Shown here: in pieces, positions 4,638 through 24,968 of the stretch
Layout: each line of letters starts with the position of its first letter
How positions within the stretch are numbered: the first letter of the stretch is position 1
NCBI GenBank assembly: GCA_016196885.1
Contig: JACPWU010000020.1
Span: 64,650 to 96,649 of the forward strand
Reading direction: 5' to 3'
Source: Chlamydiota bacterium
GTDB taxonomy: Bacteria; Auribacterota; JACPWU01
Length of the DNA: 32,000 nt
Translations under genes and position numbers: made by a program
Notes under the pieces: generated by a model
Database searches by the model: none
What the model saw: only the letters and a program-made list of their open reading frames with translations
What the model was told of the DNA's origin: nothing

Positions 4638-4643
4638 AAAAAG

Positions 4644-4729
4644 GCCGTGCTTCGTACATCGTTCTTCGTACATCGTAAAAAATCATTCATCAAACACGAA
4701 CGAAGTACGACGTACGCTGCACGAAGAAC
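4644..4729 (-). repeat. Long imperfect hairpin with CGT/ACG-rich arms (family member 2), between guaA stop and dnaE start
   Basis: Arm 4644-4676 (gccgtgcttcgtacatcgttcttcgtacatcgt) pairs with arm 4695-4729 (cacgaacgaagtacgacgtacgctgcacgaagaac), with internal loops. The loop is A/T-rich and ~18 nt. On the minus strand the hairpin is followed by GGCCTTTTT and then the dnaE ATG. Confidence 0.6.
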
Positions 4730-4735
4730 TGTTTT

Positions 4736-6292
4736 TCATTCCCATTCAATCGTGCTGGGGGGTTTAGAGCTGATGTCATAAACCACGCGATTGATTCCCT
4801 TGACCTCATTGATGATTCGATTTGAGATTTGGGCCAGCAAGTCGTAAGGAAGCCTCACCCAGTCGGCCGTCATCCCGTCGAGACTGCTCACCACGCGAAG
4901 GGCAATCACATTTTCATAGGTTCGCCCATCCCCCATCACCCCGACTGTTTTCACGGGCAGCAGTACGGCAAAAGACTGCCACACCTTTCGGTAGAATTCA
5001 GCCTTCCGGATCTCATCCATGACAATGACGTCCGCCTTTCTCAAAATTTCGAGACGCTCTTTCGTCACTTCCCCAATCACTCGAATGGCCAAGCCAGGCC
5101 CCGGGAAAGGTTGCCGCATCAAAATCTCATCGCTCATGCCCAGCTCTTTTCCCAAAAGTCTCACCTCATCCTTAAAAAGATCTCGCAAGGGCTCTACCAA
5201 TTCAAATGCCAAATCTTTGGGAAGTCCTCCGACATTGTGATGTGTCTTAATCGTCGCCGAAGGCCCTCCAAATGCTGACACACTCTCGATCACATCGGGA
5301 TAAAGGGTTCCCTGGGCTAAAAATTTTACCTTTCCCAATTTTCGAACCTCCTCCTCAAAAACGCGGATGAAAGTCTCTCCAATTTTTTTGCGCTTCAGTT
5401 CAGGATCCGTCACCCCTTCTAAATTTTTTAAAAATTTTTCCGACGCATCTGCATAAACCAAATCAATGTGAAAATGATTTTGAAAAGTCTGAATGACTTT
5501 TTCTGCCTCACCCAAACGCAGAAGTCCATTGTTCACAAAAATACAGACCAACTGATCCCCAATGGCTTGGTGAAGAAGCATCGCGGTCACAGAAGAATCC
5601 ACCCCACCACTCAAGCCGCAAATCACCCTTTCTCGAGCGAGACGTTTTTTTAACTGGGCAATTTCATTTTGAACGAAGGATTTCATATCCCAAGATTTAG
5701 AACACTCACATATTTTAAAAAGAAAATTTTGGATGATTTGAGCGCCCTCTTCTGTATGAACCACCTCCGGATGAAATTGAAGACCATAAAGTTTTCTCTT
5801 TTGATCTCCCAGCGCAGCCATGGAAGTATTCGAGGTATGAGCCAACACCTTAAAGCCATTGATAGCTTCGGACACTTGATCGCCATGGCTCATCCAAACC
5901 ACACCTTGACGGGAAAGTCCTTCCAAAAGGATGTCTGGGTCATCCAGGAGAAGCTCTGCCTTTCCATATTCCCGGCGCCCACTGGGTGTCACCTTTGCGC
6001 CCAGAAGCTGAGCCATGAGCTGCATTCCATAGCAAATGCCTAGAACAGGAACTCCCCATTTAAAAATTCTCTCATCACATTGGGGGGCTCCCTTTTCATA
6101 AACACTGGAGGGTCCTCCGGATAAGACAATTCCTTTAGGAGAAAGTTTTTTAATTTCTTCAAAAGAAACATGGCAGGGAAAAACTCTTGAAAAAACACCG
6201 TTCTCACGAATCCGACGGGCGATAAGTTGTGTATACTGGGACCCAAAATCTAAAATAGCTATCAACTCTTTTTCGATGGAGGATTGATTCAT
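4736..6292 (-). CDS. guaA: GMP synthase (glutamine-hydrolysing)
   Basis: GATase motifs GICYGMQ and HPE, the PP-loop SGGVDSS, and the characteristic C-terminus [15 protein letters not shown] upstream. Confidence 0.97.
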
Positions 6293-14093: not shown

Positions 14094-14202
14094 ATTTGAA
14101 ATTCCTGATGAGAGAAGGAAATCAATATACTCCCAGAAAAGCTTGAAATCCAGGATTTTGGTTGATTTCTTACTCCCTTTTTTGATAGTAAAGAGACCTC
14201 TC

Positions 14203-14838
14203 ATGAAACCGGGATCTCTCATTTTTAACATTATCTTTTATTTATTTCTTCTTCTACTTCTACAAGATCCCATCTATGCTGAAGACCTTTCTTTTCTAGG
14301 ACACGCCTTTATCGAATACAAACTGACGGGTAAAAATGAGGGGAGTGAAGAACTCTACATCAAGAATAATAAGATTCGCTCGATCACACGACTGAACACC
14401 TCTGTCCATACTTCTACCATTGTCATTGACCTCTTGTACATGATCGAGGGTTCCGACATCATCCTTGTCGATTTCAACCAACGAGAAGGGAGTAGAATCA
14501 AAAACAGCTTCGACAAATCCGTGAGTGAAATGACCGATGAAGAAAAGAGGATATTTAAAAGAGAAATTCTTACCGGACTTCCCAGGCAAAGTGAATTTGA
14601 AGACCTTGGACGTGAAACCATCCTGGGAAAGGACTGCCTCATCCTAAAGGCTCAGCTTAAAGAAATAACCATGAAAATATGGATTTGGAACGACCTCGTT
14701 CTAAAAAGCGAAATGACAGGCTCCATCACATTCAGCAAAGTGGCCACTCAGATAGACACCTCATCGCCCATTTCAAAAGATTTGTTTCAAGTTCCATTGG
14801 ATATTAAAATAAAAGAAAAAATGACAAATAACCCATAA
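14203..14838 (+). CDS. Hypothetical secreted protein
   Basis: MKPGSLIFNIIFYLFLLLLLQDPIYA signal peptide beginning at the ATG at 14203, which is internal to track ORF 14143. No family recognised. Divergent from the TPR gene. Confidence 0.55.
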   Translation: MKPGSLIFNIIFYLFLLLLLQDPIYAEDLSFLGHAFIEYKLTGKNEGSEELYIKNNKIRSITRLNTSVHTSTIVIDLLYMIEGSDIILVDFNQREGSRIKNSFDKSVSEMTDEEKRIFKREILTGLPRQSEFEDLGRETILGKDCLILKAQLKEITMKIWIWNDLVLKSEMTGSITFSKVATQIDTSSPISKDLFQVPLDIKIKEKMTNNP

Positions 14839-14940
14839 CAAATGTCAAATGAACGACCCATGACTCAATGTCCAATAGGTGATTGGGAAATGGGTGAATT
14901 GGGAATTAATTTGTCATTTGTTATGGGTCATTGGACATTG
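14831..14940. terminator. Interleaved inverted repeats at a convergent gene junction, possibly a bidirectional terminator
   Basis: ACCCATAACAAATGTCAA (14831-14848) versus TTGTCATTTGTTATGGGT (14911-14928), with one mismatch. CAATGTCCAAT (14866-14876) versus ATTGGACATTG (14930-14940), perfect. The arms overlap the last codons of both convergent genes. Confidence 0.45.
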
Positions 14941-17385
14941 TTTTAAACATCTTCCTGTCACAGACTCCCTCACCTTCTCTATCTCTTCTAGTGTCCCCTG
15001 AGCTACAATTTCTCCGCCCCGCTCACCTCCTCCTGGACCCATATCTATTATATAATCCGCACATCGAATCACCTCCAAATGATGTTCAATCACCAAAACG
15101 CTATTTCCTTCATCTCTCAATCGAAAGAAGATTTTAAGCAGCCGTTCAACATCCACAAGATGGAGCCCCTGGGTCGGCTCGTCAAAAACGTAAAGGGTTC
15201 CTTGCAAATGGCGCCGGGCAAGGTCCATCGCCAATTTCATTCGTTGAACTTCTCCGGAAGAAAGAGTCCTCGAACGCTGTCCCAACTGAAGATAACCCAC
15301 GCCTACCTCTTTCAAGGATTTAAGAGACAAGAGAATGGAAGGAATGTTTTCAAAAAAGTGAAGGGCCTCCTCCACCGTCATTCCTAAAACTTCATGGATG
15401 TTTCGACCCTTGTATTTAATTTCAAGGGTCTCGCGATTGTAACAGCTCCCCCGACAGGCCTCGCAAGAAATCTCGAGATCCGCCATCCACATCATCTCCA
15501 CTTTCTCAAGACCCTCTCCCCGACAAGACTCACACCTTCCACCTTTCACGTTAAAGCTGAAGCGATTCTCACTGTATCCCCTCAAGCGGCTCTCAGGAAC
15601 ACGAGCAAAGAGTTCGCGAATCTGATCAAAGATCCCTACATAGGTTGACACATTCGAACGAGAATTTTTCCCCATGCCCTGATCATCCACAACCACCAAC
15701 CTCTTTACCTTGCCCATCCCTTCAAGCTCATCCCAACTTGGATTCAAAATTTTTTCCTTAGACAAATGCGACTTCAGGGCTCGGCACAAAACATCATTCA
15801 CAAGAGAAGTTTTTCCAGAACCTGAAACACCCGTCACACAGCAAAAAACCTCCAATGGAATTTTTACATCTATCTTTTTCAAATTATTTGCCCTGGCCCC
15901 TCGTATTTCAAGACAGAAAGGTGACGCCAGACGAGTCGCCTTCCCCAAGGAAATTCGAAGCTCTCCCCTCAACAATCGTCCGGTCAAAGAAGAGGACTTC
16001 TGTAACTGTGCCTTCTTACCAAAGGCGGTCAGCTCGCCGCCTCCAGAGCCCGCTCTAGGTCCCATCTCCACAATCACATCTGCCGCCTGAATCACCGCTC
16101 CATCATGCTCAATCACCAAGACCGTATTGCCCTCGTCCCTCATCTGGTATAACAACTTCACAAGACGAGGAACCTCACTGGAGTGAAGCCCTAAGGTAGG
16201 TTCATCCAAAATATACAAAACGCCCACCAGGCCCGACGCAATTTGACTTGCGATCCTCAAACGCTGCAACTCTCCTCGAGAAAGAGAAGACAAACTTCGA
16301 TTCAAAGAGAGCTCTCCCAATCCTGTGTTCATTAAAAGCTTTAGCTTCGGGAGGATTTTGGATGAAACCTCCTTTTGAACCTCCTCCCTTTTACGATCGC
16401 CAAATTTTAATCGTTCCAAGAAAAGGGATATCTTGGAAAGACGAAGTGAACACAATTCAAAAATAGAATAAGGCCCTACTTTGACACTCAAAGATTCTTT
16501 TCTCAGTCGGGCCCCTTGACAAGCCGTGCAAACATTCGAGGTATCTTTTAGAAACCCCCTCCCGTGGCAATGAGGACAGGCCCCTTGAGGACTGTTGAAT
16601 GAAAAAAAAGCGGGCGATAATTCTCCATAATGTAAACCACAGGCCAAACACCGATACTCCGTACAATAAGTACCATCGAGCCCTGGCTTTTCATCCGAAA
16701 AAATCTGAACAACCCCCTCCCCATATCGCAATGCCAATTCGATAGAATCTGCAATTCTGGTTCTCGCCTCCTCCTTCACCACCAGACGATCCACGACAAT
16801 CTGAACTTCTCTTGCCTCAAACAAAGACAAACCCTCAAGCTCCGTCAGCTTGCCATCGATGCGAACCCGGACAAAACCCTCTTTTTGTAAAGTTTCCAAA
16901 GACATCTCTTCTGGCTTTGGAGCCAGAATCATGAGAGAGGTTTGTGGCGGTAGCTCCATCACCTTTGCAATGATTTGCTGGGGGGTAAAACGTTCCAGTC
17001 GTTCACCACATTGATAACAAAAAAGATCTCCCGCCTTTGAAAAGAGAAGTCTTAAAAAATCTGCTATTTCTGTTAAAGTTCCAACTGTGGATCTCAAAGA
17101 AACGGAGGTTTGATGAGATGTCAAAAGAAAGGCGGGTGGCAATCCTTCAATAAAATCTAGACCAGATCGCGGTAAATCCAAGAAACGAAAGCCAAATTCA
17201 CTTCCCAAAAATTCTACATATCTTCGCTTGGCCTCTCGATAGATGGTATCTATCACCAAGGAGGACTTCCCAGAACCACTCAAACCTGTGACCACAATCA
17301 ACTGATGATGAGGCAAATCAAGGGTCACATTTTTAAGATAATGTTCCCTGGCTCCTCGAATGGAAATCTTAGGTTGGATCATCAT
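14914..17385 (-). CDS. UvrA-like ABC ATPase (excinuclease subunit A paralogue or variant), 823 aa
   Basis: Two ABC modules: GLSGSGKSS and GVSGSGKTS Walker A, ILDEPT and VFDEPT Walker B. Zinc modules: CYQCG, CLACG...CPHCHGRG, CESCRGEG...CEACRG. Signature motifs read LSRGE and LSSGE. About 115 aa shorter than the canonical enzyme. Confidence 0.88.
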   Translation of the reverse strand: MMIQPKISIRGAREHYLKNVTLDLPHHQLIVVTGLSGSGKSSLVIDTIYREAKRRYVEFLGSEFGFRFLDLPRSGLDFIEGLPPAFLLTSHQTSVSLRSTVGTLTEIADFLRLLFSKAGDLFCYQCGERLERFTPQQIIAKVMELPPQTSLMILAPKPEEMSLETLQKEGFVRVRIDGKLTELEGLSLFEAREVQIVVDRLVVKEEARTRIADSIELALRYGEGVVQIFSDEKPGLDGTYCTEYRCLACGLHYGELSPAFFSFNSPQGACPHCHGRGFLKDTSNVCTACQGARLRKESLSVKVGPYSIFELCSLRLSKISLFLERLKFGDRKREEVQKEVSSKILPKLKLLMNTGLGELSLNRSLSSLSRGELQRLRIASQIASGLVGVLYILDEPTLGLHSSEVPRLVKLLYQMRDEGNTVLVIEHDGAVIQAADVIVEMGPRAGSGGGELTAFGKKAQLQKSSSLTGRLLRGELRISLGKATRLASPFCLEIRGARANNLKKIDVKIPLEVFCCVTGVSGSGKTSLVNDVLCRALKSHLSKEKILNPSWDELEGMGKVKRLVVVDDQGMGKNSRSNVSTYVGIFDQIRELFARVPESRLRGYSENRFSFNVKGGRCESCRGEGLEKVEMMWMADLEISCEACRGSCYNRETLEIKYKGRNIHEVLGMTVEEALHFFENIPSILLSLKSLKEVGVGYLQLGQRSRTLSSGEVQRMKLAMDLARRHLQGTLYVFDEPTQGLHLVDVERLLKIFFRLRDEGNSVLVIEHHLEVIRCADYIIDMGPGGGERGGEIVAQGTLEEIEKVRESVTGRCLKQCPMTHNK

Positions 17386-17479: not shown

Positions 17480-20400
17480 TCACCCCGCCACAACCGCCTC
17501 ACTCTTCGCTTCTTCCTTGGGAAGGCGAATCGAGACAATCTTGGAAATCCCAGAATCCTCCATCGTCACACCATAAATCACATCGGCAACACTGATGGTT
17601 CTCTTGTTGTGAGTAATCAAGATAAACTGAGTCTGGGATTTAAATTCATCGAGCAAGGAAAGAAAACGCATGATGTTGGATTCATCTAAAGCGGCGTCCA
17701 TTTCATCCATGAAACAAAAGGGGCTCGGCCTCACCTTAAAAATGGCCAAGAGAAGTGACACGGCCGTCAAAGTTTTCTCTCCCCCGGAAAGAAGAGAAAT
17801 CGCCTGAAGTTTTTTCCCAGGCGGCTGCGCCGAAATATTGATTCCACACTCCAAAACATCCCCATCCTCCAAAAGTTCCACAACTGCCCGCCCGCCTCCA
17901 AAGAGCCTTCGATAAATCTCATTAAACGTGTCGCGTATTTTCTCAAAAGTTCCTACAAATAATTCGCGGATGGTGACATTGATTTTTTGAATGGCCTTCA
18001 CCAAATCATCTTTTGCGTGCATCAAGTCTTCCTGCTGCTTCAGTAAAAATTCATATCGGGCACGATGTTCGTCAAATTCCTGAATGGCCACCAAATTCAC
18101 CTCACCCATTTGCCTCAGCTTTTCCTGAAGCTCTAAAATACGCTGATGAACCTCTTCCATGGGCAGAGCCTCCGATTCCAATGGAAACTCAGAAAGAGAG
18201 ACATCATATTTTTCCTTCATCCTTTGAACTAAATTCTCGCACTGTAACGTGGCTTGAGCCTTTTTGACCTCTAAATGAGAAAGACTCTCCCGCATCTCAT
18301 CCAATCGAGCCACATTCCCACTCAAGATTTCTTGATTCTGGCGAATGGTTTCAGTCATTTTTCCAACCCTTTTCGAAACTTCATCGCGCCTCACCCCTAA
18401 AGACACCTTCTCTTGGGAAAAGGATTCTAGATTCTTAGAAAGCAGTTCTATCTTGGCCCCCATTTCTGTTTTTTTCGCATGGGCCGCATTCAAATCCAAG
18501 TTTCTCTTCTCAATCAAACGCCCCAACTCCTCAAGGCCGGTTTCGAGCTCATGAATTCTCTGGGCAAAACGGGCCTCCTCTTCTTCGATGGACCGGCTCA
18601 TCACCTTCACCTCAGCCAACTCGGACAGCGCCACTTCCTTCTCATTTTCCAAAGCAGTCACGGTTTGATCCTGATGCGCAATCCCTTCCGCTAAGAGATT
18701 GATTTCAAGAGTCAAATGTTTCAAGCGGTCAGAAATCTGAGAAACCATTTTTTCTAAATCGTTCACCTCCTGCATCAAATCTTTCTCTTCATTTGAAATT
18801 CCACTCTCTTCCTCTTGAAGGTCTTTCAACTTGGAAAGCAAGCGCTCGAAATGACCTGACACATTGGCCCACTCCAATTCCTTCAAACGCAATTGATCTC
18901 GCTCTGTAGAAATCTCCCGATCCAACCTATTTCCCTTTTCCTGAAGAGGCTCCCTTTTCTTTTCCAAAGCACGAAGACGGCCCGAAATGGCTTCAATATC
19001 AGCATCCAAAGCTTGAAGGTCTACGACTGTTTCATCGGAAATCCCATTAAAATTCCAAGTCCCATCTCGATCCAACAAATCTCCATCCAAAGTCACAAAG
19101 CGAAAACGGCCGAGACTCTCCACAGGAATGGCTTGAAATGAGCGGCTCGTTTTCAAAATAACCAAATCGCCCAGAATAGAAGCGACCGCATTTTGATATT
19201 CTGAAGAACATTGAACCCAATCCTTGGCATAGCCTATAAAGCCATCCAAACCTGATAAATCAAATGCTTCAGGACTTGCAACCACCGTGTCCAACGGGAA
19301 AAAAACAGTTTGATGAATTTTTTCAATGCGGGTCCGTGTCTCTTTTAGAATGCACATCCATTTTCGACCCAGAACTGTTTGAAAGGCCTTCCTCATTTCC
19401 CTGGGGATTTTCAAAATACCTTGGAGGGAAATTTCCTTCCCAGCAACAGACGATTGAGATTCTTCCTGAAGAGCGCCCAACTGCCAAGCCACTTCACGCT
19501 TGGCAGTACATTTAAGAAACTCCCCCTTCTCTTTTTCAATCTCTTCGGAAATCTCTTTCATCTCGCCTTCAAAAAAAATTTTCTCGCCCAAGAGAATTTT
19601 CAAACGCTCCTCAATTTGCTTCACATCGCAAGACAAACTGTCTTTTAATTGCTGGCATTGACTTTTCTCATGCTCCTTTTCCTGAATATGGAGCATGACT
19701 TTTTCACGCTCTGTCTCCAATTTTTCTTCTCTCAGCACCCAATCTTTCTCGCGATGGTGATGCACCATTCTCTGATTGTTAAGCTGGGCCTCTTTCTCTT
19801 TCAGGTCTAGAAATTGAGCCTTCAGAAGATTGAGTTTTTCCTGACTTTCTTCAAATTTTTTAATGATGAATTCCAGCCGCGTTTTTCGCCCTTCTAAATC
19901 TTCCTTTCGATCCCGATGGGACTCCATAAAGGCCTGACGACCCTTCTCTTCTTGATCGAGCTCGGACCTCAAAGAAGCGACCCTCTCTTGAGACCGCACC
20001 ACCTCCTCCTGATCAGAAACCATTCGGAAATCAATCTCGAGAATTCTTTCTTTCAAAAGTTCAATCTCGCTCCCAGCATTCTGAAACTTATGAAAAAGCT
20101 CGGCGTCCCTCTTTTCTAACTGGGCCAGCTCCTCAAAAGTGGATTTGTGATTCTTCTCAATTTCCTGAATCTTCCCCTGAAGGGCCTCCACCTCCTTTTG
20201 AAACTCATCCCGCAGAAACGTCCTCTCCCCCATCTCAACTTCTAAATTCTTGAGCTCCAGAGAGCGTTCCTCAAACTCAAGTCTTGCCACTTTTAATTCA
20301 AGTGCCTTCAACTCCTCTCGCGCCTCTTGATAACGCCGGGCCTTGCCTGCCTGCCTCTCCAGAGAAATAATCTGGCGCTTCACCTCGCGAATAATATCCG

Positions 20401-20974
20401 CCAGCCGAAGCAGATTGGCATCTGTGGACTCCAAGCGATGAAGGCTCGCCACCTTTTTCACTTTATATTTCATAATCCCAGCCGCCTCTTCAAAAACGGC
20501 TCGGCGATCTTCAGGCTTGGCGCTTAGAACGAGATCAATTTTCCCCTGTTCTAAAAGGAAATAGGCGTTGGTGCCAATCCCCGTTCCCATGAACAATTCA
20601 CGGACGTCACGCAAAAGGCAGGGATTCTGATTAATGAGGTATTGACTCTCTCCAGATCGGAAAAGTCGGCGAGTGATCGTCACTTCATGATAGCCCAGGG
20701 GAAGAACCCCCTCAGCCTCCACAAAAGTCGCTGAAACCTCAGCACGGCCAACGGCCTTACGCTGATCGGTCCCATTGAAAATCACATCCTCCATTTGAGC
20801 CCCCCTCAAAAGGCGGGGATTCTGCTCACCAAACACCCAGCGAAGGGCATCCGCCACATTGCTCTTTCCACAACCATTGGGCCCCACAATCGCAGTCAAC
20901 CCACGTTCAAGTTCCACTCCCATCTTTTCAGCAAAAGACTTGAACCCAACCATCTCAATTCTCTTTAAATACAC
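17480..20974 (-). CDS. smc: Chromosome segregation protein SMC
   Basis: MYLKRIEMVGFKSF start (GTG codon, AGGGGG SD), Walker A GPNGCGKSN, long coiled coils, signature LSGGEKTL and Walker B FCFMDEMDAALD. 1164 aa. Confidence 0.95.
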   Translation of the reverse strand: MYLKRIEMVGFKSFAEKMGVELERGLTAIVGPNGCGKSNVADALRWVFGEQNPRLLRGAQMEDVIFNGTDQRKAVGRAEVSATFVEAEGVLPLGYHEVTITRRLFRSGESQYLINQNPCLLRDVRELFMGTGIGTNAYFLLEQGKIDLVLSAKPEDRRAVFEEAAGIMKYKVKKVASLHRLESTDANLLRLADIIREVKRQIISLERQAGKARRYQEAREELKALELKVARLEFEERSLELKNLEVEMGERTFLRDEFQKEVEALQGKIQEIEKNHKSTFEELAQLEKRDAELFHKFQNAGSEIELLKERILEIDFRMVSDQEEVVRSQERVASLRSELDQEEKGRQAFMESHRDRKEDLEGRKTRLEFIIKKFEESQEKLNLLKAQFLDLKEKEAQLNNQRMVHHHREKDWVLREEKLETEREKVMLHIQEKEHEKSQCQQLKDSLSCDVKQIEERLKILLGEKIFFEGEMKEISEEIEKEKGEFLKCTAKREVAWQLGALQEESQSSVAGKEISLQGILKIPREMRKAFQTVLGRKWMCILKETRTRIEKIHQTVFFPLDTVVASPEAFDLSGLDGFIGYAKDWVQCSSEYQNAVASILGDLVILKTSRSFQAIPVESLGRFRFVTLDGDLLDRDGTWNFNGISDETVVDLQALDADIEAISGRLRALEKKREPLQEKGNRLDREISTERDQLRLKELEWANVSGHFERLLSKLKDLQEEESGISNEEKDLMQEVNDLEKMVSQISDRLKHLTLEINLLAEGIAHQDQTVTALENEKEVALSELAEVKVMSRSIEEEEARFAQRIHELETGLEELGRLIEKRNLDLNAAHAKKTEMGAKIELLSKNLESFSQEKVSLGVRRDEVSKRVGKMTETIRQNQEILSGNVARLDEMRESLSHLEVKKAQATLQCENLVQRMKEKYDVSLSEFPLESEALPMEEVHQRILELQEKLRQMGEVNLVAIQEFDEHRARYEFLLKQQEDLMHAKDDLVKAIQKINVTIRELFVGTFEKIRDTFNEIYRRLFGGGRAVVELLEDGDVLECGINISAQPPGKKLQAISLLSGGEKTLTAVSLLLAIFKVRPSPFCFMDEMDAALDESNIMRFLSLLDEFKSQTQFILITHNKRTISVADVIYGVTMEDSGISKIVSIRLPKEEAKSEAVVAG

Positions 20975-21223
20975 AACGCCCCCTTTTTACAACATCCTGT
21001 GGCCTACAACCTGAACCTACCACAACCTATGGGGGTGTTCAATACAAATATCCATATTTTTCGTAAAATTTTCATGTTCCGGTGAGCCCCCACTGTTCAA
21101 AGATGCTGCCAACTGTGTGCGATGAAATCCTCCCTTATGTACATGCCTTTTGATTCAAAGTGGAGTGAGTGGATCGCCGAGATACTCCTTTCATCTCTAC
21201 CCCAAATAAGATAGGATCAAACC

Positions 21224-22060
21224 ATGTCCAGCGTCAGCTTGATTATTCCTACTTACAACCGAGCCTCATTCTTGAAAGAGGCCTTGGATTCTGTTTTCGA
21301 TCAAGAGAGAAGGCCCGATGAAATCATCGTCATTGACGATGGCTCTACGGATGAAACTCAAAGGATTGTGAATTCATTCAAAGACATTCACTATTTTTAT
21401 CAGCCCAACCAAGGGGTCAGTTCTGCAAGAAATCAAGGAATCAAAATGGCTCAAGCAGAATGGATCACATTTTTAGACTCTGATGATTTGTGGCTCCCCG
21501 ATAAGCTTAAAGTCCAATTAGAAATCACTCAAGCCTATCCCTATTTTCAAATCTTTTACACGGACGAAATTTGGATCCGCAAAGGTAAACGCGTGAATCA
21601 AGGCAAGCGCCACTCCAAATATGGCGGCTGGATTTTTGAGCAGTGTCTTCCCTTGTGCATCATCAGCCCCTCTTCTATGATGATTCACAAAAATATTTTC
21701 AAGACCATCGGCTTCTTTGATGAATCGCTCCCGGCCTGCGAAGACTATGATTTGTGGCTGAGAACCGCTCTTCGTCATCCCATTTACTTCTTTCCAAAAC
21801 CTTTAATCGTCAAAAGGGGTGGACACGAAGATCAACTTTCCAAAAAATTCTTTGGCCTGGATCGCTTTCGCGTTCAAGCCCTTCAGAAAATTCTGCAGGA
21901 TCCCCTTCTATCCCCCACCCAAAAAGAATTGGTTCTCGAAGAAATTGAAAAAAAGAGCATGATTTACGCACAAGGATGCTTAAAAAGAAATCGCATGGAA
22001 GAATATGAACATTATCGAAAAGCCCATTTCAGAATTGATTCAACTTTCATCCCCTTTTGA
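21224..22060 (+). CDS. Family 2 glycosyltransferase
   Basis: LIIPTYNR, VIDDGSTDET and DSDD (DxD) motifs typical of the GT-A/GT2 fold. Confidence 0.88.
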   Translation: MSSVSLIIPTYNRASFLKEALDSVFDQERRPDEIIVIDDGSTDETQRIVNSFKDIHYFYQPNQGVSSARNQGIKMAQAEWITFLDSDDLWLPDKLKVQLEITQAYPYFQIFYTDEIWIRKGKRVNQGKRHSKYGGWIFEQCLPLCIISPSSMMIHKNIFKTIGFFDESLPACEDYDLWLRTALRHPIYFFPKPLIVKRGGHEDQLSKKFFGLDRFRVQALQKILQDPLLSPTQKELVLEEIEKKSMIYAQGCLKRNRMEEYEHYRKAHFRIDSTFIPF

Positions 22061-22994
22061 TTTCTCTTACGGCCCCCTACCCAAAGGGATGAAAAACTCC
22101 ATTGGAAAAATGGGCGTTATCAACATGCCTCAAATTTATGAAGGGGAAGAAACCATTCTCATCACTGGGAAAAGAAGACTCAAAATGGTTTATGAATTGA
22201 ATCCTCATCAAAGACTTCACATTAAAATTTTCAAAAAAAACGAGCTCAGCGAGGAAAAGGCTTTTCAAATTCATCTCTTCGACAATTTATCAACACGGTC
22301 TCTCAACCCAATGGAAAAATCAAATGTCTTGAAAATTCTGAAAAGTCATTTTAATTTAAATCCTGAAACCCTGCAAAAGGAATACCTCCCATACTTGGAA
22401 CTCCCCCTCAAAGAAGAAATTCTTGCAGACTATCTGAAATTACAAAATCTGTCTTCCAAAGCCAAAGAGGGGGTCGCCGCTCAAATCCTACAAGTGGACA
22501 CCGCGGTCAAGATCTTAAAATTTCCTTCTAAAGATCAAGAAATACTCCTGACCCTGATAGAAACGCTTCATCTGGGCATCCATCCTCAAAAAAATCTAAT
22601 CACTTATGCGTGGGAAATTTCTCAAAAGAAGAAACTCTTTATTTCAGAATGGATAAAAAGAGAAGTCATTCAAGACATCTTAAAAAAGGAGGAGTGGTCA
22701 AGCGCCCAAAAATGGGCCAAGCTTGAAAGCGAACTCCGGCGCGAACGCTACCCCCTCCTAAAGAGTTTAGAAAGTCATTTTGCTGAAATAAAAAAAGACC
22801 TTCATTTGCCTCCCGCCCTCACACTTCAACATCCTCCCTACTTTGAAACAAATGACTATCTCCTTCAATGGCGCTTTAAAAACGAGGCGCAATATCGCTC
22901 GGGTCTTCAGCTTCTAAACAAGATAGAATCTACAAAATCTTTTCACGGACTTTTTGAATTAACGGAAGAAAATGGTCAAACGATACTTTCCTAA
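22005..22994 (+). CDS. Divergent ParB/Srx-fold (ParB N-terminal domain-like) protein
   Basis: The N-terminus shows the ParBc pattern MKNSIGKMGVINMP...ILITGKRRLKMVYEL (a GxRR box), followed by an ENL-type helix region LFDNLSTRSLNPMEKSNVLKIL. The C-terminal ~180 aa are unassigned. Overlaps the GT2 gene by 56 nt if the ATG at 22005 is used. Confidence 0.65.
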   Translation: MNIIEKPISELIQLSSPFDFSYGPLPKGMKNSIGKMGVINMPQIYEGEETILITGKRRLKMVYELNPHQRLHIKIFKKNELSEEKAFQIHLFDNLSTRSLNPMEKSNVLKILKSHFNLNPETLQKEYLPYLELPLKEEILADYLKLQNLSSKAKEGVAAQILQVDTAVKILKFPSKDQEILLTLIETLHLGIHPQKNLITYAWEISQKKKLFISEWIKREVIQDILKKEEWSSAQKWAKLESELRRERYPLLKSLESHFAEIKKDLHLPPALTLQHPPYFETNDYLLQWRFKNEAQYRSGLQLLNKIESTKSFHGLFELTEENGQTILS

Positions 22995-24060
22995 AAAACT
23001 TTTCATTGAAGATGCGGTCAGAGAAGAACCGTTGACCCAAACTGTCTTAAAAAATTTATCCTATCTTTCCCCTGAATATTTCTCTGGAGGCGTTGAGGAT
23101 CATTTTTCAAAACTTTCCCTCAAAGATGGGAAAGAGGTGCTTGTTCTCGCGCAAAAAAGAGGGCGTTTTCTAAAGGCCTGTCCCGGCTCAAAAGATTCTC
23201 TTTGCTGTGGGTATTTTATCTTGGAATCTCAAAGCAATTGTAATTATGACTGCACTTATTGTGTGCTGCAAAGTTACTTGACGAGCCCCCCCTTGATTGT
23301 TTACCCCAATGTTCAGGATATGTTTAACGAATTAACAGGTATCTTTGAAACAAGTCCTAAAATTTCATTTCGCATTGGAACGGGAGAGCTGAGCGACAGC
23401 CTATCGCTGGATCACATCACAGAATACACTAAAATTCTGACCCCCTTTTTTGCAAAGCAGAAAAGGGCCTGTATTGAACTTAAAACAAAATCTACAGAGA
23501 TTCACAATCTAAAAAATCTCGATCATCAAAAACACACCATTGTCTCGTGGTCTTTAAACACCGTTCGCATGGCACAAAAAGAAGAACTCAAAGCCGCAAG
23601 CATTGACGAGAGAATGGAGGCGGCACGCCTTTGCCAAGACTGGGGATATCCCATCAGTTTCCATCTCGAACCCCTGCTCTATTATCCCGAATGGCAAGAA
23701 GATTATCGAGAATTGATTGCTAAAATTTTTCAGGTGATTCGTCCTGAAAACATTGTTTGGATCAGTCTCGGCGGCCTTCGACTCATGGAAGGGCTTAAAG
23801 ACTTTGCCGAGGAAAGATTTCCCAAAAGCTCTTTTCTTTATGAAGAGCTGATTCCAGGGAGCGACAAAAAATTGCGCTATCTCAAAATCATCCGCCTTGA
23901 AATGTATCGGGTGATTTCTCATTGGATTCGAGAATGGGGCGGGAAAGTCCCCATGTATCTCTGCATGGAGGCGAGCGATCTTTGGAGAAAAGGCCTTGGA
24001 TACGATTTTGAGAATGCTGAAAAGACGGACGAGTATTTAGGGAAAAGAGTTTTTAGATAA
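22972..24060 (+). CDS. Spore-photoproduct-lyase-family radical SAM enzyme
   Basis: The YFPKKLFIE start, CPGSKDSLCCGYFIL and the CxxxCxxC cluster CNYDCTYC at residues 90/94/97. From memory, B. subtilis SplB uses Cys 91/95/98. Overlaps the ParB-like gene by 23 nt. Confidence 0.82.
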   Translation: MVKRYFPKKLFIEDAVREEPLTQTVLKNLSYLSPEYFSGGVEDHFSKLSLKDGKEVLVLAQKRGRFLKACPGSKDSLCCGYFILESQSNCNYDCTYCVLQSYLTSPPLIVYPNVQDMFNELTGIFETSPKISFRIGTGELSDSLSLDHITEYTKILTPFFAKQKRACIELKTKSTEIHNLKNLDHQKHTIVSWSLNTVRMAQKEELKAASIDERMEAARLCQDWGYPISFHLEPLLYYPEWQEDYRELIAKIFQVIRPENIVWISLGGLRLMEGLKDFAEERFPKSSFLYEELIPGSDKKLRYLKIIRLEMYRVISHWIREWGGKVPMYLCMEASDLWRKGLGYDFENAEKTDEYLGKRVFR

Positions 24061-24077
24061 TGAGCGATCATCATTTT

Positions 24078-24968
24078 TCAAAGATTTTTGATCGTCATCT
24101 GAGCCGCCTTCAAGGTATTTTTTAAGAGCATGGCAACCGTCATAAGTCCAATCCCTCCGGGGACCGGTGTAATGGCCGCGGCCTTTTTTGAAACCCCATC
24201 GAAATCTACATCCCCGACCAGGCGATATCCTTTTTCTGAAAGTGGATCTGAAACGCGATTGATCCCCACATCCACCACCACCACTCCCTCTCTCACAGCT
24301 TCGGCCTGGATGAATTGAGGTTTTCCTATGGCAGCCACAATGATTTCGGCCATTTTAAGATGCGCCTTTAAATTCTTTGTCCCCGAATGACATAAAGTCA
24401 CCGTGGCATTGGTCCCAAAATCTTTTTGAGCAAAAAGGGCGGCCACCGGTTTTCCCACAATGTTTGAACGGCCCACCACAACCACGTGGCGACCTTCCAT
24501 CGGAATTTGATACCGTTTCAGAATTTCAATCACCCCCAAAGGCGTGCACGGAACAAATTGAGGAATTCCCAAAAGCAGCCTGCCCATGTTAAAAGGGTGA
24601 AAGCCATCCACATCTTTTTCAGGGAGGATGGTCTCGTAGATGAGAGATTCCTGAATGTGAGGCGGCAGGGGATGTTGGACCAAGATGCCGTGAATATCGG
24701 GGCGCTGATTTAATTTTTGGATGCAGTCTAAAAGTTCAGTCTCTTGAGTTTGAAAAGGAAGACGTATCTCTTCCGATAAAAAACCCACCTCTTGGCAGGC
24801 CTTGGCCTTACTGCGCACATACACCTTTGAAGCTGGATCCTCCCCCACCAAAAGAACGGCCAAGCCCGGCTGAAGATTCCTAGAGCGCTTCAGTTCTTCA
24901 GTCTGGCGAGCGACCTCTTCCCGAACCCTCTGGGAAATTATTTTGCCATCGAGCAGTGTAAAACTCAT
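24078..24968 (-). CDS. folD: Bifunctional methylenetetrahydrofolate dehydrogenase/cyclohydrolase
   Basis: The LLVGEDPASKVYVRSK, VVVGRSNIVGKP and ITPVPGGIGLMTVAMLL motifs. GGGAG SD. Confidence 0.95.
   Translation of the reverse strand: MSFTLLDGKIISQRVREEVARQTEELKRSRNLQPGLAVLLVGEDPASKVYVRSKAKACQEVGFLSEEIRLPFQTQETELLDCIQKLNQRPDIHGILVQHPLPPHIQESLIYETILPEKDVDGFHPFNMGRLLLGIPQFVPCTPLGVIEILKRYQIPMEGRHVVVVGRSNIVGKPVAALFAQKDFGTNATVTLCHSGTKNLKAHLKMAEIIVAAIGKPQFIQAEAVREGVVVVDVGINRVSDPLSEKGYRLVGDVDFDGVSKKAAAITPVPGGIGLMTVAMLLKNTLKAAQMTIKNL

What the first reader, a model, noticed from the sequence alone, without database searches (positions are those of the whole stretch)
21224..24060. Overlapping plus-strand operon: GT2 glycosyltransferase, divergent ParB-fold protein, spore-photoproduct-lyase-like radical SAM enzyme
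This is the only multi-gene plus-strand unit in a window otherwise read on the minus strand. Its three frames overlap by 56 nt and 23 nt, which suggests co-translation. ParB/Srx-fold proteins are DNA- or nucleotide-handling modules; DndB and DpdB in DNA-modification systems are ParB-like. SPL-family radical SAM enzymes do radical chemistry on thymine in DNA. No sporulation genes are present in this window, so the canonical role of repairing spore photoproduct is not obviously the job here. Pairing a DNA-clamping or CTPase-like protein with a DNA-directed radical SAM enzyme and a sugar transferase is the kind of triad expected for a DNA base modification, hypermodification or specialised repair module. 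I do not know of a described system with this composition.
Basis: partly seen in the sequence, partly recalled or inferred. Interest (0 to 1): 0.72.

Follow-up and report, generated by a model that had tools for sequence, protein, structure and literature searches.

The report
ParB-partnered SPL-like radical SAM operon
A three-gene operon pairs a divergent ParB-type DNA-binding protein with a new branch of the spore-photoproduct-lyase radical-SAM family, plus a sugar transferase; the pair is conserved in hundreds of non-sporulating, mostly uncultured bacterial species, and I found no description of it in the literature I searched.

Summary
Three overlapping plus-strand genes encode a GT2 glycosyltransferase (21224-22060), a ParB-family protein (22005-22994) and an SPL-family radical SAM enzyme (22972-24060).

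The conserved core is the ParB-like + SPL-like pair. The ParB-like gene lies directly upstream in 71 of 79 assessable loci (90%), drawn from at least 588 species genomes in more than ten phyla. All 80 loci examined are MAGs of non-sporeformers. GT2 joins the pair in 42% of loci. About 70% of this GT2 family directly precedes an SPL-family cassette.

The radical SAM enzyme has the full SPL fold (TM 0.8) and the SAM ligands. It keeps the Clostridium-type H-donor cysteine (C70). It lacks Tyr98 and the long lesion-flipping hairpin, and it scores far below the SplB equivalog cutoff. The ParB-like protein keeps the nucleotide-binding and HTH domains but has a novel C-terminal domain.

KSB1-type genomes put a UvrD-family helicase where GT2 sits. 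The module was not found in viral contigs, sequenced phages or plasmid records, and matches no defence-system model.

Best reading: a ParB-assisted, DNA-directed enzyme doing SPL-type thymine radical chemistry. Repair and lesion reversal is slightly favoured. An anaerobic thymine hypermodification pathway is a serious rival. The function is untested.

The parts
20975..21223 (+). Intergenic region between the divergent SMC gene and GT2; presumed promoter region of the operon
   Evidence: 249-bp gap. There is no sigma-70-like site above chance here and no internal terminator in the first two genes. No palindrome is present, and only a short block is conserved with L001.
21224..22060 (+). GT2 (GT-A fold) glycosyltransferase, 278 aa, with no membrane-spanning region apparent by eye (not tested). 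Motifs: DDGS 21335-21346, DSDD 21476-21487, EDYD 21740-21751
   Evidence: PF00535 at 126 bits. The best solved relative is the chondroitin synthase GlcA-T domain at 161 bits. 27 orthologues are 44-64% identical, with invariant R13, D85/D87/D88 and E173/D174/Y175.
21997..22003 (+). GGAAGAA ribosome-binding-like motif 8 nt upstream of the ParB-like ATG, inside the GT2 coding sequence
   Evidence: Read from the sequence. The same heptamer precedes the SPL-like ATG.
22005..22994 (+). ParB-family protein, 329 aa. Nucleotide-binding domain with GKRR (G55-R58, 22167-22178), box-III-like FDNLSTRSLNPMEKS (22278-22322), HTH domain (residues ~98-200), and a family-specific C-terminal domain (residues ~205-329)
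   Evidence: hhalign against canonical ParB gives 99.4% over 168 columns. The AF2 model has pLDDT 83, and the top 31 Foldseek hits are ParB/Noc/Spo0J. Orthologues L004 and P0122 pass the Pfam ParB_N cutoff. R58 is invariant, and G55, N94, R98, E104, R248, P250, P269, F280 and E281 are at least 90% conserved in 61 sequences.
22964..22970 (+). GGAAGAA ribosome-binding-like motif 8 nt upstream of the SPL-like ATG, inside the ParB-like coding sequence
   Evidence: Read from the sequence.
22972..24060 (+). SPL-family radical SAM enzyme, 362 aa. Putative H-donor Cys70 (23179-23181); CxxxCxxC C90/C94/C97 (23239-23262); family-specific E139, H231, E233 (Asp in most members), C78/C79, C221 and C331; a short hairpin at residues 293-303; a ~40-aa C-terminal extension
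   Evidence: PF20903 at 98 bits. AF2 pLDDT is 90.3. Foldseek to Geobacillus SPL gives E 1e-23 and TM 0.79-0.86.

Best explanation
The operon encodes a DNA-directed radical-SAM module. Its obligatory core is the ParB-like protein plus the SPL-like enzyme.

Proposed mechanism:
- The ParB-like subunit binds DNA through its HTH domain. It probably binds a nucleotide (CTP) in its N-terminal domain. It recruits or activates the radical SAM enzyme on duplex DNA through its family-specific C-terminal domain. This would make up for the enzyme's truncated lesion-flipping hairpin.
- The enzyme reductively cleaves SAM at the C90/C94/C97 cluster.
- The 5'-deoxyadenosyl radical abstracts a hydrogen from a thymine-derived residue that has been flipped into the active site.
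- A bond at the thymine C5-methylene is broken, leaving a 5-thymidyl (allylic) radical.
- That radical is quenched by hydrogen-atom transfer from Cys70, the position used by Clostridium SPL.
- Because the Tyr98 relay is missing, SAM is consumed as a co-substrate rather than regenerated.

I favour a lyase-type repair, meaning direct reversal of a methylene-bridged thymine lesion or adduct. The lesion need not be the UV spore photoproduct, since most carriers live in dark, anoxic habitats. GT2 is a lineage-variable accessory whose acceptor is unknown.

Shown: gene order and overlaps, co-conservation, folds, and motif retention or loss.
Inferred: DNA as the substrate, the ParB-enzyme contact, nucleotide binding, the chemistry, and the repair role.
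For: Pair conservation: the ParB-like gene is directly upstream and on the same strand in 71 of 79 loci. These come from at least 588 species genomes in Acidobacteriota, Thermodesulfobacteriota, KSB1, Zixibacteria, Calditrichota, Omnitrophota, Marinimicrobia, Aminicenantia and Auribacterota, with otherwise unrelated flanks. The reverse test from the ParB side agrees: P0131, indexed in 205 blocks of the collection, is followed by an SPL-family gene in all 24 contigs read.

Enzyme: full-length SPL fold with TM 0.79-0.86, against at most 0.49 for any other radical SAM enzyme. The SAM and lesion ligands are invariant: K173=K174, S194=S195, R270=R273 (residue roles from PMC3467042). The invariant C70 sits in the column of the Clostridium H-donor Cys, which is Ser76 in Geobacillus and C76 in the 4rh0 rescue mutant.

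ParB-like protein: N-terminal domain plus HTH at 99.4% hhalign probability, with GxRR retained.

DNA context: a UvrD-family helicase is translationally coupled to the pair in L041 and L053. A PcrA/UvrD helicase lies divergently upstream in 12 loci labelled Acidobacteriota/Acidobacteria. UvrA and SMC are adjacent in the window and in L001.

Housekeeping character: no relative in viral contigs, only remote SPL-family matches in phage and plasmid records, and no defence-system model matched.

Precedent for ParB-like activators of thymine-directed DNA enzymes on dsDNA: PMC13229309.
Against: A repair role does not explain why GT2 is translationally coupled here, or why about 70% of this GT2 family precedes SPL-family cassettes.

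Tyr98, which is strictly conserved in authentic SPLs, is Val or Ile here. The hairpin is 6 residues shorter and lacks the R304/Y305 tip and K309.

New invariant residues (E139, H231, D/E233) and four extra conserved cysteines suggest a different substrate, or an auxiliary cluster typical of oxidising radical SAM enzymes.

Carriers are mostly from dark, anoxic habitats where UV photoproducts are not expected (habitat inferred from taxon names).

The ParB-like box I QPR and the catalytic Glu of GERR are missing, so CTP hydrolysis is doubtful.

No loading-site palindrome was found. Helicase and UvrA adjacency could be lineage synteny. There is no experimental evidence of any kind.
Confidence: 0.4

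Rival explanations
1. Post-replicative thymine hypermodification: an oxygen-independent counterpart of the phage 5mYOX-ParB-glycosyltransferase (base-J-like) pathways. The SPL-like enzyme would generate a 5-thymidyl radical on thymine in DNA and functionalise the methyl group, possibly with an auxiliary Fe-S cluster as electron acceptor. The ParB-like protein would activate or target it on dsDNA. GT2 would then glycosylate the product in the lineages that carry it.
For: This reading accounts for all three genes. Each part type has published precedent on C5-substituted pyrimidines in DNA:
- ParB-dependent thymine dioxygenases, with glycosyltransferases as the most frequent co-occurring domain at 31% (PMC13229309).
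- The SPL-like radical SAM enzyme M6 gp53, proposed to act via a 5-thymidyl-DNA radical (PMC8989533).
- GT-A DNA glycosyltransferases with R...DDD...EDY/F motifs that resemble TarP and JGT (bioRxiv 10.1101/2023.12.21.572611). The window GT2 has R13, DSDD and EDYD.

The GT2 family is linked to SPL-family genes in two architectures and in about 70% of members. Extra conserved Cys and new polar active-site residues are present. Carriers are mostly anaerobes, where O2-dependent dioxygenases would not work (inference).
Against: An invariant H-donor-position Cys next to the thymine methyl would quench the radical, which suits a lyase rather than a modifying enzyme.

More than half of the pairs lack GT2.

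The module sits in conserved chromosomal contexts. No relative was found in viral contigs, phage or plasmid records, and no defence-system model matched. No methyltransferase or nuclease partner was seen.

The GT2 motifs are generic to GT2, and its nearest solved relatives are polysaccharide synthases.

I know of no radical SAM hydroxylation of a DNA base (own knowledge).
Confidence: 0.28
2. A non-DNA substrate. GT2 and the SPL-family enzyme would build or remodel a glycosylated nucleoside, cofactor or glycoconjugate. The middle gene (ParB-like here, a PNP/MTAN-like nucleosidase elsewhere) would be a nucleotide-handling accessory.
For: GT2 resembles polysaccharide-type transferases. A second architecture has GT2, a nucleosidase-like gene, an SPL-family gene and often a short-chain dehydrogenase, which looks like a small-molecule pathway. 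Radical SAM plus nucleosidase pairs are known from the futalosine and hopanoid pathways (own knowledge). ParB/Srx folds include small-molecule kinases (own knowledge).
Against: The ParB-like protein keeps a ParB-type HTH DNA-binding domain (TMt 0.76-0.81 to the Noc and ParB DNA-binding domains). The enzyme keeps the Arg that binds the lesion phosphate in SPL (R270). UvrD-family helicases are coupled to the pair in KSB1-type loci. The nucleosidase-linked SPL-family genes are a different, more distant clade (150-230 bits).
Confidence: 0.1
3. The ParB-like protein is only a transcriptional regulator of the operon (as KorB is), or the adjacency is synteny without a physical partnership. The SPL-like enzyme would then be an ordinary stand-alone SP lyase used by non-sporeformers.
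For: ParB-family regulators exist (KorB and BisD papers listed). 8 of 79 SPL-like loci lack a ParB-like neighbour. The enzyme has the complete SPL fold.
Against: Same-strand, overlapping adjacency is kept in 90% of loci across more than ten phyla despite unrelated flanks. The ParB-like protein has a strongly conserved private C-terminal domain (R248, P250, LPP, F280/E281). The enzyme scores 114 bits against the SplB equivalog cutoff of 400 and lacks Tyr98 and the hairpin tip.
Confidence: 0.1

Closest known systems
Spore photoproduct lyase SplB (TIGR04070; Geobacillus thermodenitrificans structures 4FHC-4FHG; Clostridium-type variant with the upstream H-donor Cys)
   Same: Same Pfam family (PF20903) and the same full-length fold (TM 0.79-0.86). 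Same CxxxCxxC at identical numbering (C90/C94/C97) and the same Tyr96. Same SAM ligands (K174/S195 equivalents) and the same Arg273 equivalent. The Cys at the Ser76/Cys77 position is the one Clostridium SPL uses as H-atom donor.
   Different: Only 20-21% identical to Bacillus and Clostridium SplB. It scores 114 bits against a 400-bit equivalog cutoff. Cys140 is replaced by an invariant Glu. Tyr98 is replaced by Val or Ile. The hairpin is 6 residues shorter, without the R304/Y305 tip or K309. There is an extra CC insertion after C70, new invariant H231 and D/E233, and a ~40-aa C-terminal extension with invariant C331. There is no SplA and no sporulation context, and the partner is a ParB-like protein.
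ParB-dependent phage thymine dioxygenases (5mYOX/ParB pairs, PMC13229309)
   Same: A cognate ParB-family protein is encoded next to an enzyme that works on the thymine C5-methyl in DNA. Glycosyltransferases are frequent third components. The canonical CTPase residues are dispensable or degenerate.
   Different: The enzyme there is an Fe(II)/2-oxoglutarate dioxygenase, not a radical SAM enzyme. That ParB keeps the C-terminal dimerisation domain and lacks an obvious DNA-binding domain, whereas this one keeps the HTH and replaces the C-terminal domain. Those systems are phage-borne, whereas this one is chromosomal and was not found in viral collections.
Pseudomonas phage M6 gp53, an SPL-like radical SAM isomerase of N-alpha-glycinylthymidine in DNA (PMC8989533)
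   Same: An SPL-fold radical SAM enzyme acting on a thymidine derivative in DNA through a 5-thymidyl radical. It shows that the SPL fold is used outside photoproduct repair.
   Different: gp53 is phage-encoded. It works with a 5-HMUDK kinase, an aGPT-Pplase and a PLP decarboxylase, not with ParB or GT2. No detectable sequence relative of the window protein was found in phages beyond two 23%-identity hits. A direct comparison with gp53 was not run.
Chromosomal ParB/Spo0J and Noc (CTP-dependent DNA sliding clamps)
   Same: The N-terminal ParB domain with GxRR, a box-III-like ENLxxRxxNxxExA motif, and the HTH DNA-binding domain. hhalign gives 99.4% probability.
   Different: There is no box I QPR and no Glu in GERR, and the box III Arg is shifted by one position. 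The C-terminal dimerisation domain is replaced by a private ~125-aa domain. No adjacent ParA was seen in the loci inspected, and no parS-like palindrome was found. It is always coupled to a radical SAM gene. It evolves fast (16-48% identity within the family).

Membership tests
Spore photoproduct lyase SplB (equivalog TIGR04070) | Radical SAM CxxxCxxC cluster motif and the SAM-binding residues (K174, S195, R273 in Geobacillus numbering) | tested here: met
   C90/C94/C97, K173, S194 and R270 are invariant in 82 family members and sit in the SPL columns.
Spore photoproduct lyase SplB (equivalog TIGR04070) | Full-length SPL fold | tested here: met
   The AF2 model (pLDDT 90.3) matches 4fhc-4fhg, 4k9r and 4rh0 with E about 1e-23 and TM 0.78-0.86 over ~348 columns.
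Spore photoproduct lyase SplB (equivalog TIGR04070) | Fourth conserved Cys as H-atom donor (Cys140 in Bacillus/Geobacillus, or Cys77 in Clostridium at the Ser76 position) | tested here: met
   The invariant C70 aligns with the C. botulinum SplB Cys and with C76 of the 4rh0 S76C mutant. The Cys140 column holds an invariant Glu. The function of C70 was not tested.
Spore photoproduct lyase SplB (equivalog TIGR04070) | [quoted passage not shown] | tested here: not met
   The column holds V (43), I (32), F (4), Y (2) and one other residue in 82 sequences.
Spore photoproduct lyase SplB (equivalog TIGR04070) | Lesion-flipping beta-hairpin with the R304/Y305 tip, and K309 | tested here: not met
   A hairpin is predicted at residues 293-303, but it is 6 residues shorter than in SplB and lacks the KRRYKW segment. 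K300 and Y303 align with the later GKYxY. The alignment in this region is of low certainty.
Spore photoproduct lyase SplB (equivalog TIGR04070) | Score above the curated NCBIfam equivalog cutoff; SplA or sporulation context | tested here: not met
   114.5 bits against a cutoff of 400. TIGR03886 gives 48 bits against 437. The carriers examined are non-sporeforming phyla, and there is no SplA neighbour, in contrast to L165.
ParB/Spo0J/Noc CTPase DNA clamps | ParB N-terminal (ParB/Srx) domain followed by the ParB HTH DNA-binding domain | tested here: met
   hhalign of A3 against canonical ParB gives 99.4% over 168 columns. Foldseek hits include 7bnk, 6sdk, 7ol9, 6t1f and 1vz0. Pfam ParB_N is above its cutoff for orthologues L004 (44 bits) and P0122 (29 bits), but not for the window protein itself.
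ParB/Spo0J/Noc CTPase DNA clamps | CTP-binding and hydrolysis motifs: box I (QPR), box II (GERRxRA), box III (ENLQR) | tested here: inconclusive
   GxRR is kept (R58 invariant, G55 at least 90% conserved). The Glu of GERR is replaced (K here, F in the consensus). Box I QPR is absent. Box III is ENLxTR, with the Arg shifted by one position. Nucleotide binding cannot be tested here.
ParB/Spo0J/Noc CTPase DNA clamps | C-terminal dimerisation domain, a ParA partner, and parS sites | tested here: not met
   Residues ~205-329 match no ParB structure or Pfam family. No ParA-like gene appears in the Pfam-annotated gene lists of the loci I inspected, and I ran no ParA-specific search. There is no palindrome in or upstream of the operon.
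Glycosyltransferase family 2 (PF00535, GT-A fold) | GT-A nucleotide-sugar binding motifs (DDGS, DxD, ED) and a score above the Pfam cutoff | tested here: met
   126 bits against a cutoff of 23.3. D38/D39/G40/S41, D85/D87/D88 and E173/D174 are invariant in 27 orthologues. No NCBIfam equivalog cutoff is reached, so donor and acceptor are unknown.
Phage 5mYOX-ParB-GT thymidine hypermodification pathways | A TET/JBP-type Fe(II)/2OG dioxygenase as the thymine-oxidising enzyme | tested here: not met
   No such domain appears in the operon or in the Pfam-annotated flanks that I checked in the window. The position is taken by a radical SAM enzyme.
Phage 5mYOX-ParB-GT thymidine hypermodification pathways | Viral or mobile genomic context with other hypermodification or defence-evasion genes | tested here: not met
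   No relative was found in IMG/VR. INPHARED gives only two hits at 23% identity, and none for the ParB-like protein. PADLOC gives no hit. The flanks are housekeeping genes.
Phage 5mYOX-ParB-GT thymidine hypermodification pathways | A modified thymidine present in the DNA | not testable with these tools
   This requires nucleoside LC-MS or raw long-read signal.

The most novel reading that the evidence does not exclude
Anaerobic bacteria from many phyla use a radical SAM enzyme of the SPL fold, switched on for duplex DNA by a dedicated ParB-like protein, to functionalise the methyl group of thymine in their own chromosomes without oxygen. In lineages with the GT2 gene, the product is glycosylated. 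This would be a bacterial, O2-independent analogue of base J and of phage 5hmU hypermodification.
Probability: 0.25. Interest if true: 0.95.

Novelty: new variant of a known kind. Interest (0 to 1): 0.76.

Why it matters
SPL was long the only radical SAM enzyme known to act on DNA, and it has been treated as specific to spores. This work shows a large, deep-branching sister clade in at least 588 species genomes from more than ten mostly uncultured, non-sporulating phyla. That clade is almost always encoded together with a private ParB-family protein.

If the proposed mechanism holds, the concept of ParB as an enzyme activator on dsDNA would extend in two ways. That concept was shown only in 2026, for phage thymine dioxygenases. 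It would now also apply to radical SAM chemistry and to cellular chromosomes. The outcome would be one of two things: a new anaerobic DNA repair pathway for thymine-bridged lesions, or an oxygen-independent route to thymine hypermodification.

Either outcome gives the radical SAM, ParB-CTPase and DNA-modification fields a concrete target. The system has only two or three genes and can be tested by heterologous expression.

Tried and rejected
- **SMC link.** A ~1165-aa gene near stand-alone GT2s was suspected to be SMC, because ParB loads SMC. BLAST against the window SMC found nothing.
- **Rosetta-stone fusions of ParB-like and SPL-like.** The oversized ORFs in L015, L021, L061 and L069 are high-GC or N-run gene-call artefacts, not fusions.
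- **parS-like palindromes.** None found in the operon or upstream, and only a short block is conserved with L001.
- **Shared C-terminal domain between the ParB-like protein and the nucleosidase-like alternative middle gene.** No significant match: best E about 0.05, at scattered positions.
- **Mobile, defence or viral origin.** No SPL-like relative in IMG/VR. PADLOC gives no hit. Phages give two remote hits for SPL-like and none for ParB-like. Plasmids give only canonical splB and distant SPL-family genes at 29% identity or less.
- **Sequence alignment of the C-terminal 84 residues to SPL.** No hit. C-terminal equivalence therefore rests on the fold match and on a low-certainty MAFFT alignment.
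- **AFDB fold search for cultured carriers.** The library was unavailable.
- **First word-indexed search with the ParB-like protein.** Only 2 hits, because the family diverges fast. The profile search was biased toward Marinimicrobia by the candidate cap.
- **Literature.** No paper combines SPL or radical SAM with ParB and a glycosyltransferase as a system. The ParB-CTPase-fold survey (bioRxiv 10.1101/2025.10.10.680097) mentions neither radical SAM nor photoproduct lyase.
- **Auxiliary Fe-S cluster.** I could not test whether the extra cysteines cluster in space, because model coordinates are not exposed.

Full report
**Observation**

The window carries three overlapping plus-strand ORFs at exactly the reported coordinates: 21224-22060 (278 aa), 22005-22994 (329 aa) and 22972-24060 (362 aa). 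They overlap by 56 nt and 23 nt. The unit lies between a divergent SMC gene (17480-20974, minus strand) and a convergent FolD gene (24078-24968, minus strand). UvrA, DnaE and GuaA/B lie further out. Every other plus-strand ORF of at least 120 aa is either a shadow ORF inside a minus-strand gene or a single gene.

Both internal ATGs are preceded by the same GGAAGAA heptamer 8 nt upstream. The N-termini they define are conserved in orthologues. No internal terminator-like site lies in the first two genes; the one site found lies within the SPL-like coding sequence and is within chance expectation. The three genes are therefore best read as one operon.

The source is a MAG that NCBI labels 'Chlamydiae bacterium'. 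The nearest species-representative locus is labelled Candidatus Auribacterota.

**What the three proteins are**

*Protein 1* is a clear GT2 (GT-A) glycosyltransferase. It matches PF00535 at 126 bits but reaches no NCBIfam equivalog cutoff. Its closest solved relatives are polysaccharide-type enzymes, led by the chondroitin synthase GlcA-T domain at 161 bits.

*Protein 3* matches the SPL family (PF20903) at 98 bits. It reaches only 114 bits against the SplB equivalog model, whose cutoff is 400. Its AlphaFold model (pLDDT 90.3) superposes on Geobacillus SPL over the whole length, with E about 1e-23 and TM 0.79-0.86. The next radical SAM folds reach TM 0.49 at most.

*Protein 2* is only weakly ParB-like on its own (HTH_ParB E=0.01; Noc E=1e-4). 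Its syntenic orthologues align end to end, and two of them pass the Pfam ParB_N cutoff. A 61-sequence family profile matches canonical ParB at 99.4% probability over 168 columns, covering the N-terminal domain and the HTH. The model's top 31 PDB hits are all ParB, Noc or Spo0J. The DNA-binding domain alone superposes at 2.2-2.7 Å. The last ~125 residues match nothing known.

**Co-conservation**

Relatives of the radical SAM protein at 39-78% identity number more than 1000 in the protein collection. The 80 best loci are all MAGs. They come from Acidobacteriota, Thermodesulfobacteriota/Deltaproteobacteria, KSB1, Zixibacteria, Calditrichota, Omnitrophota, Marinimicrobia, Aminicenantia and Auribacterota.

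I built HMMs from the syntenic genes and scanned these loci.

| Measure | Result |
|---|---|
| ParB-like directly upstream of SPL-like, same strand | 71 of 79 assessable loci (90%) |
| GT2 orthologue directly upstream of the ParB-like gene | 27 of 65 loci with room (42%) |
| GT2 family members directly preceding a ParB-like, nucleosidase-like or SPL-family gene | 65 of 92 with determinable context (~70%) |

Flanking genes differ between phyla, so the unit is a self-contained cassette.

The test also works from the ParB-like side. A Marinimicrobia member retrieved independently is followed by an SPL-family gene in all 24 contigs read, out of 205 indexed blocks. An exhaustive profile search finds 150 cluster representatives (clusters at 50% identity) at E≤1e-30, the listed ones matching nearly the whole profile, and 2,295 at E≤1e-10.

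**GT2 is linked, but it is not core**

I scanned metagenome contigs starting from GT2. The results show three situations:
- triads like the window's;
- a second recurrent architecture, in which GT2 is followed by a weak PNP/MTAN/futalosine-hydrolase-like nucleosidase, a more distant SPL-family gene and often a short-chain dehydrogenase;
- stand-alone GT2s with unrelated neighbours.

In a neighbour-joining tree of 103 GT2s, the ParB-linked ones occupy several deep clades and the nucleosidase-linked ones form one clade. All pairwise combinations exist: GT2-ParB-SPL, ParB-SPL, GT2-SPL (L062) and GT2-ParB without SPL (L088, L089, L117). GT2 is therefore tied to SPL-family enzymes, but the ParB-SPL pair does not need it.

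**Catalytic anatomy of the radical SAM enzyme**

I mapped the residues that Benjdia et al. describe (PMC3467042). The mapping used HMM alignments to the Geobacillus chains and a direct alignment with annotated Bacillus velezensis and Clostridium botulinum SplB.

| SPL feature (Geobacillus numbering) | State in this family |
|---|---|
| Cluster cysteines C90/C94/C97 | Invariant, at the same numbering |
| Tyr96 | Invariant |
| SAM ligands K174, S195 | Invariant (K173, S194) |
| Arg273 | Invariant (R270) |
| Cys140 (Bacillus-type H-donor) | Invariant Glu (E139) |
| Ser76 / Clostridium Cys77 (alternative H-donor, 4.2 Å from the 3'-thymidine) | Invariant Cys (C70) |
| Tyr98 (strictly conserved in true SPLs) | Val or Ile in 75 of 82 sequences |
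| β-hairpin with R304/Y305 tip and K309 | Six residues shorter; KRRYKW segment absent |

The C70 column also holds the engineered Cys of the C140A/S76C mutant 4rh0.

The family has features of its own as well:
- a CC insertion just after C70;
- invariant H231 and D/E233;
- conserved C221 and C331;
- a ~40-residue C-terminal extension.

This is an SPL-family enzyme with the machinery for 5'-dA-initiated chemistry and H-atom return. It is not an SplB orthologue, and its substrate pocket has changed.

**Anatomy of the ParB-like protein**

The family keeps GxRR, with R58 invariant. It also keeps an 'ENLxTRxxNxxEKA' box that aligns with ParB box III, with the Arg shifted by one position. It lacks box I QPR and the Glu of GERR. 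Nucleotide binding is plausible, but hydrolysis is doubtful.

The HTH domain is retained. The canonical C-terminal dimerisation domain is replaced by a private domain with conserved R248, P250, an LPP motif and F280/E281.

The protein evolves much faster (16-48% identity) than its two neighbours. No parS-like palindrome was found.

**Further context bearing on the substrate**

- In two KSB1-type loci, an N-terminally extended UvrD-family helicase overlaps or abuts the ParB-like gene, and the ParB-like gene overlaps the SPL-like gene by 4 nt.
- In 12 loci labelled Acidobacteriota/Acidobacteria, a PcrA/UvrD helicase lies divergently, 27-1790 bp upstream.
- In the window and in L001, UvrA and SMC are adjacent.
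- The module was not found in IMG/VR, in sequenced phages or in plasmids. Only remote canonical SPL-family genes turned up there. It matches no PADLOC defence model.

**Comparison with the literature**

I found no description of a ParB + SPL-like (+ GT2) system. Three papers supply precedents for the individual parts:
- Phage thymine dioxygenases come in a subclass that needs a cognate ParB-like activator specifically on dsDNA. Glycosyltransferases are their most frequent co-occurring genes (PMC13229309).
- Phage M6 gp53 is an SPL-like radical SAM enzyme that rearranges a thymidine hypermodification via a 5-thymidyl-DNA radical (PMC8989533).
- GT-A-fold phage enzymes glycosylate DNA bases (bioRxiv 10.1101/2023.12.21.572611).

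**Interpretation**

A DNA substrate is the best-supported inference. It rests on the ParB HTH domain, the SPL fold with the lesion-phosphate Arg retained, the helicase-containing variants, and the ParB-activator precedent.

Between the two DNA-directed readings, I slightly favour a lyase-type repair, or reversal of a thymine-bridged lesion or adduct. The reasons are these:
- the invariant Cys at the H-donor position would quench a thymidyl radical;
- repair helicases and UvrA recur nearby;
- the cassette behaves like a vertically inherited housekeeping unit.

The lesion is unlikely to be the UV spore photoproduct, given the dark, anoxic habitats suggested by the carriers' taxa.

The main weakness of this reading is GT2. 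The rival reading is an oxygen-independent thymine hypermodification pathway analogous to 5mYOX-ParB-GT, and it explains all three genes. It also explains the extra cysteines and the new polar active-site residues. I give it about 0.28, against 0.40 for repair.

A non-DNA pathway gets about 0.1, as does a merely regulatory ParB. All functional statements are inferences, because no experiment exists.

**Verdict**

The finding is real and non-trivial, and I found no description of it in the searched literature. Two refinements apply: the ParB-SPL pair is the core and GT2 is an accessory, and the enzyme is a sister clade of SplB rather than an SplB.

It is best classed as a new variant of a known kind: an SPL-fold DNA enzyme with a ParB-type partner. 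There is a roughly one-in-four chance that it is something more novel, namely an anaerobic base-J-like chromosomal modification system.

Noticed in passing
L041:813-6095 and L053:857-6086: In two KSB1-type MAGs, a ~1060-aa protein (an unknown 460-aa N-terminus plus a UvrD/REP helicase core) is translationally coupled to the ParB-like and SPL-like genes. It occupies the slot that GT2 has in the window.
   Followed up: partly
window 14914-17385 (-): This is UvrA by the NCBIfam equivalog model (933 bits against a cutoff of 730). At 823 aa it is about 120 residues shorter than the model. It sits next to SMC, and the same arrangement is seen in the 70%-identity relative L001.
   Followed up: partly
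L101:2428-5070; also L146, L085, L090, L126, L130, L162, L164: A second recurrent cassette: a GT2 orthologue (~50% identical to the window's), a weak PNP/MTAN/futalosine-hydrolase-like nucleosidase (~275 aa), a more distant SPL-family radical SAM gene (~330 aa), and often a short-chain dehydrogenase. This looks like a separate, undescribed pathway.
   Followed up: partly
L111:3542-3883 and about 23 other Thermodesulfobacteriota-type loci: A small, lysine-rich protein (~113 aa) with a Rho_N (HeH-like) domain lies directly upstream of GT2 on the same strand. It may be a fourth, nucleic-acid-binding member of the operon in that lineage.
   Followed up: no
L161:6051-6611; also L124, L125, L133, L032, L045, L051, L071: An IS200-like Y1 transposase homologue (~186 aa) lies immediately downstream of the SPL-like gene on the same strand in at least 8 loci. 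A conserved position like this is unusual for a mobile element.
   Followed up: no
L088:4001-8777 and L089:2106-6882: Here GT2 and the ParB-like gene are followed by a ~961-aa PorU/T9SS-sortase-like protein instead of the SPL-like gene. No SPL-like gene lies within 4 kb.
   Followed up: no
L113, L128, L140, L152 (GT2 at about 4001-4790 in each): One GT2 subclade lacks ParB and SPL neighbours. It sits beside an AmmeMemoRadiSam-system radical SAM enzyme (TIGR04337, 354 bits) and a methyltransferase-like gene (identified by eye, not tested).
   Followed up: partly
window 22972-24060 (residues C70, C78, C79, C221, C331): Five cysteines beyond the CxxxCxxC motif are conserved in 91-100% of 82 family members, and none has a counterpart in Bacillus SplB. 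This may indicate an auxiliary Fe-S cluster. Distances could not be measured.
   Followed up: partly
window 14143-14838 (+): A 231-aa TTG-start ORF with no Pfam or NCBIfam match fills most of a ~680-bp gap between two minus-strand genes. It is unclear whether it is a real gene.
   Followed up: partly
whole window; L005: The taxonomic labels disagree. NCBI names the source MAG 'Chlamydiae bacterium', while the nearest GTDB-representative locus (71% identity for the SPL-like gene) is 'Candidatus Auribacterota'.
   Followed up: no
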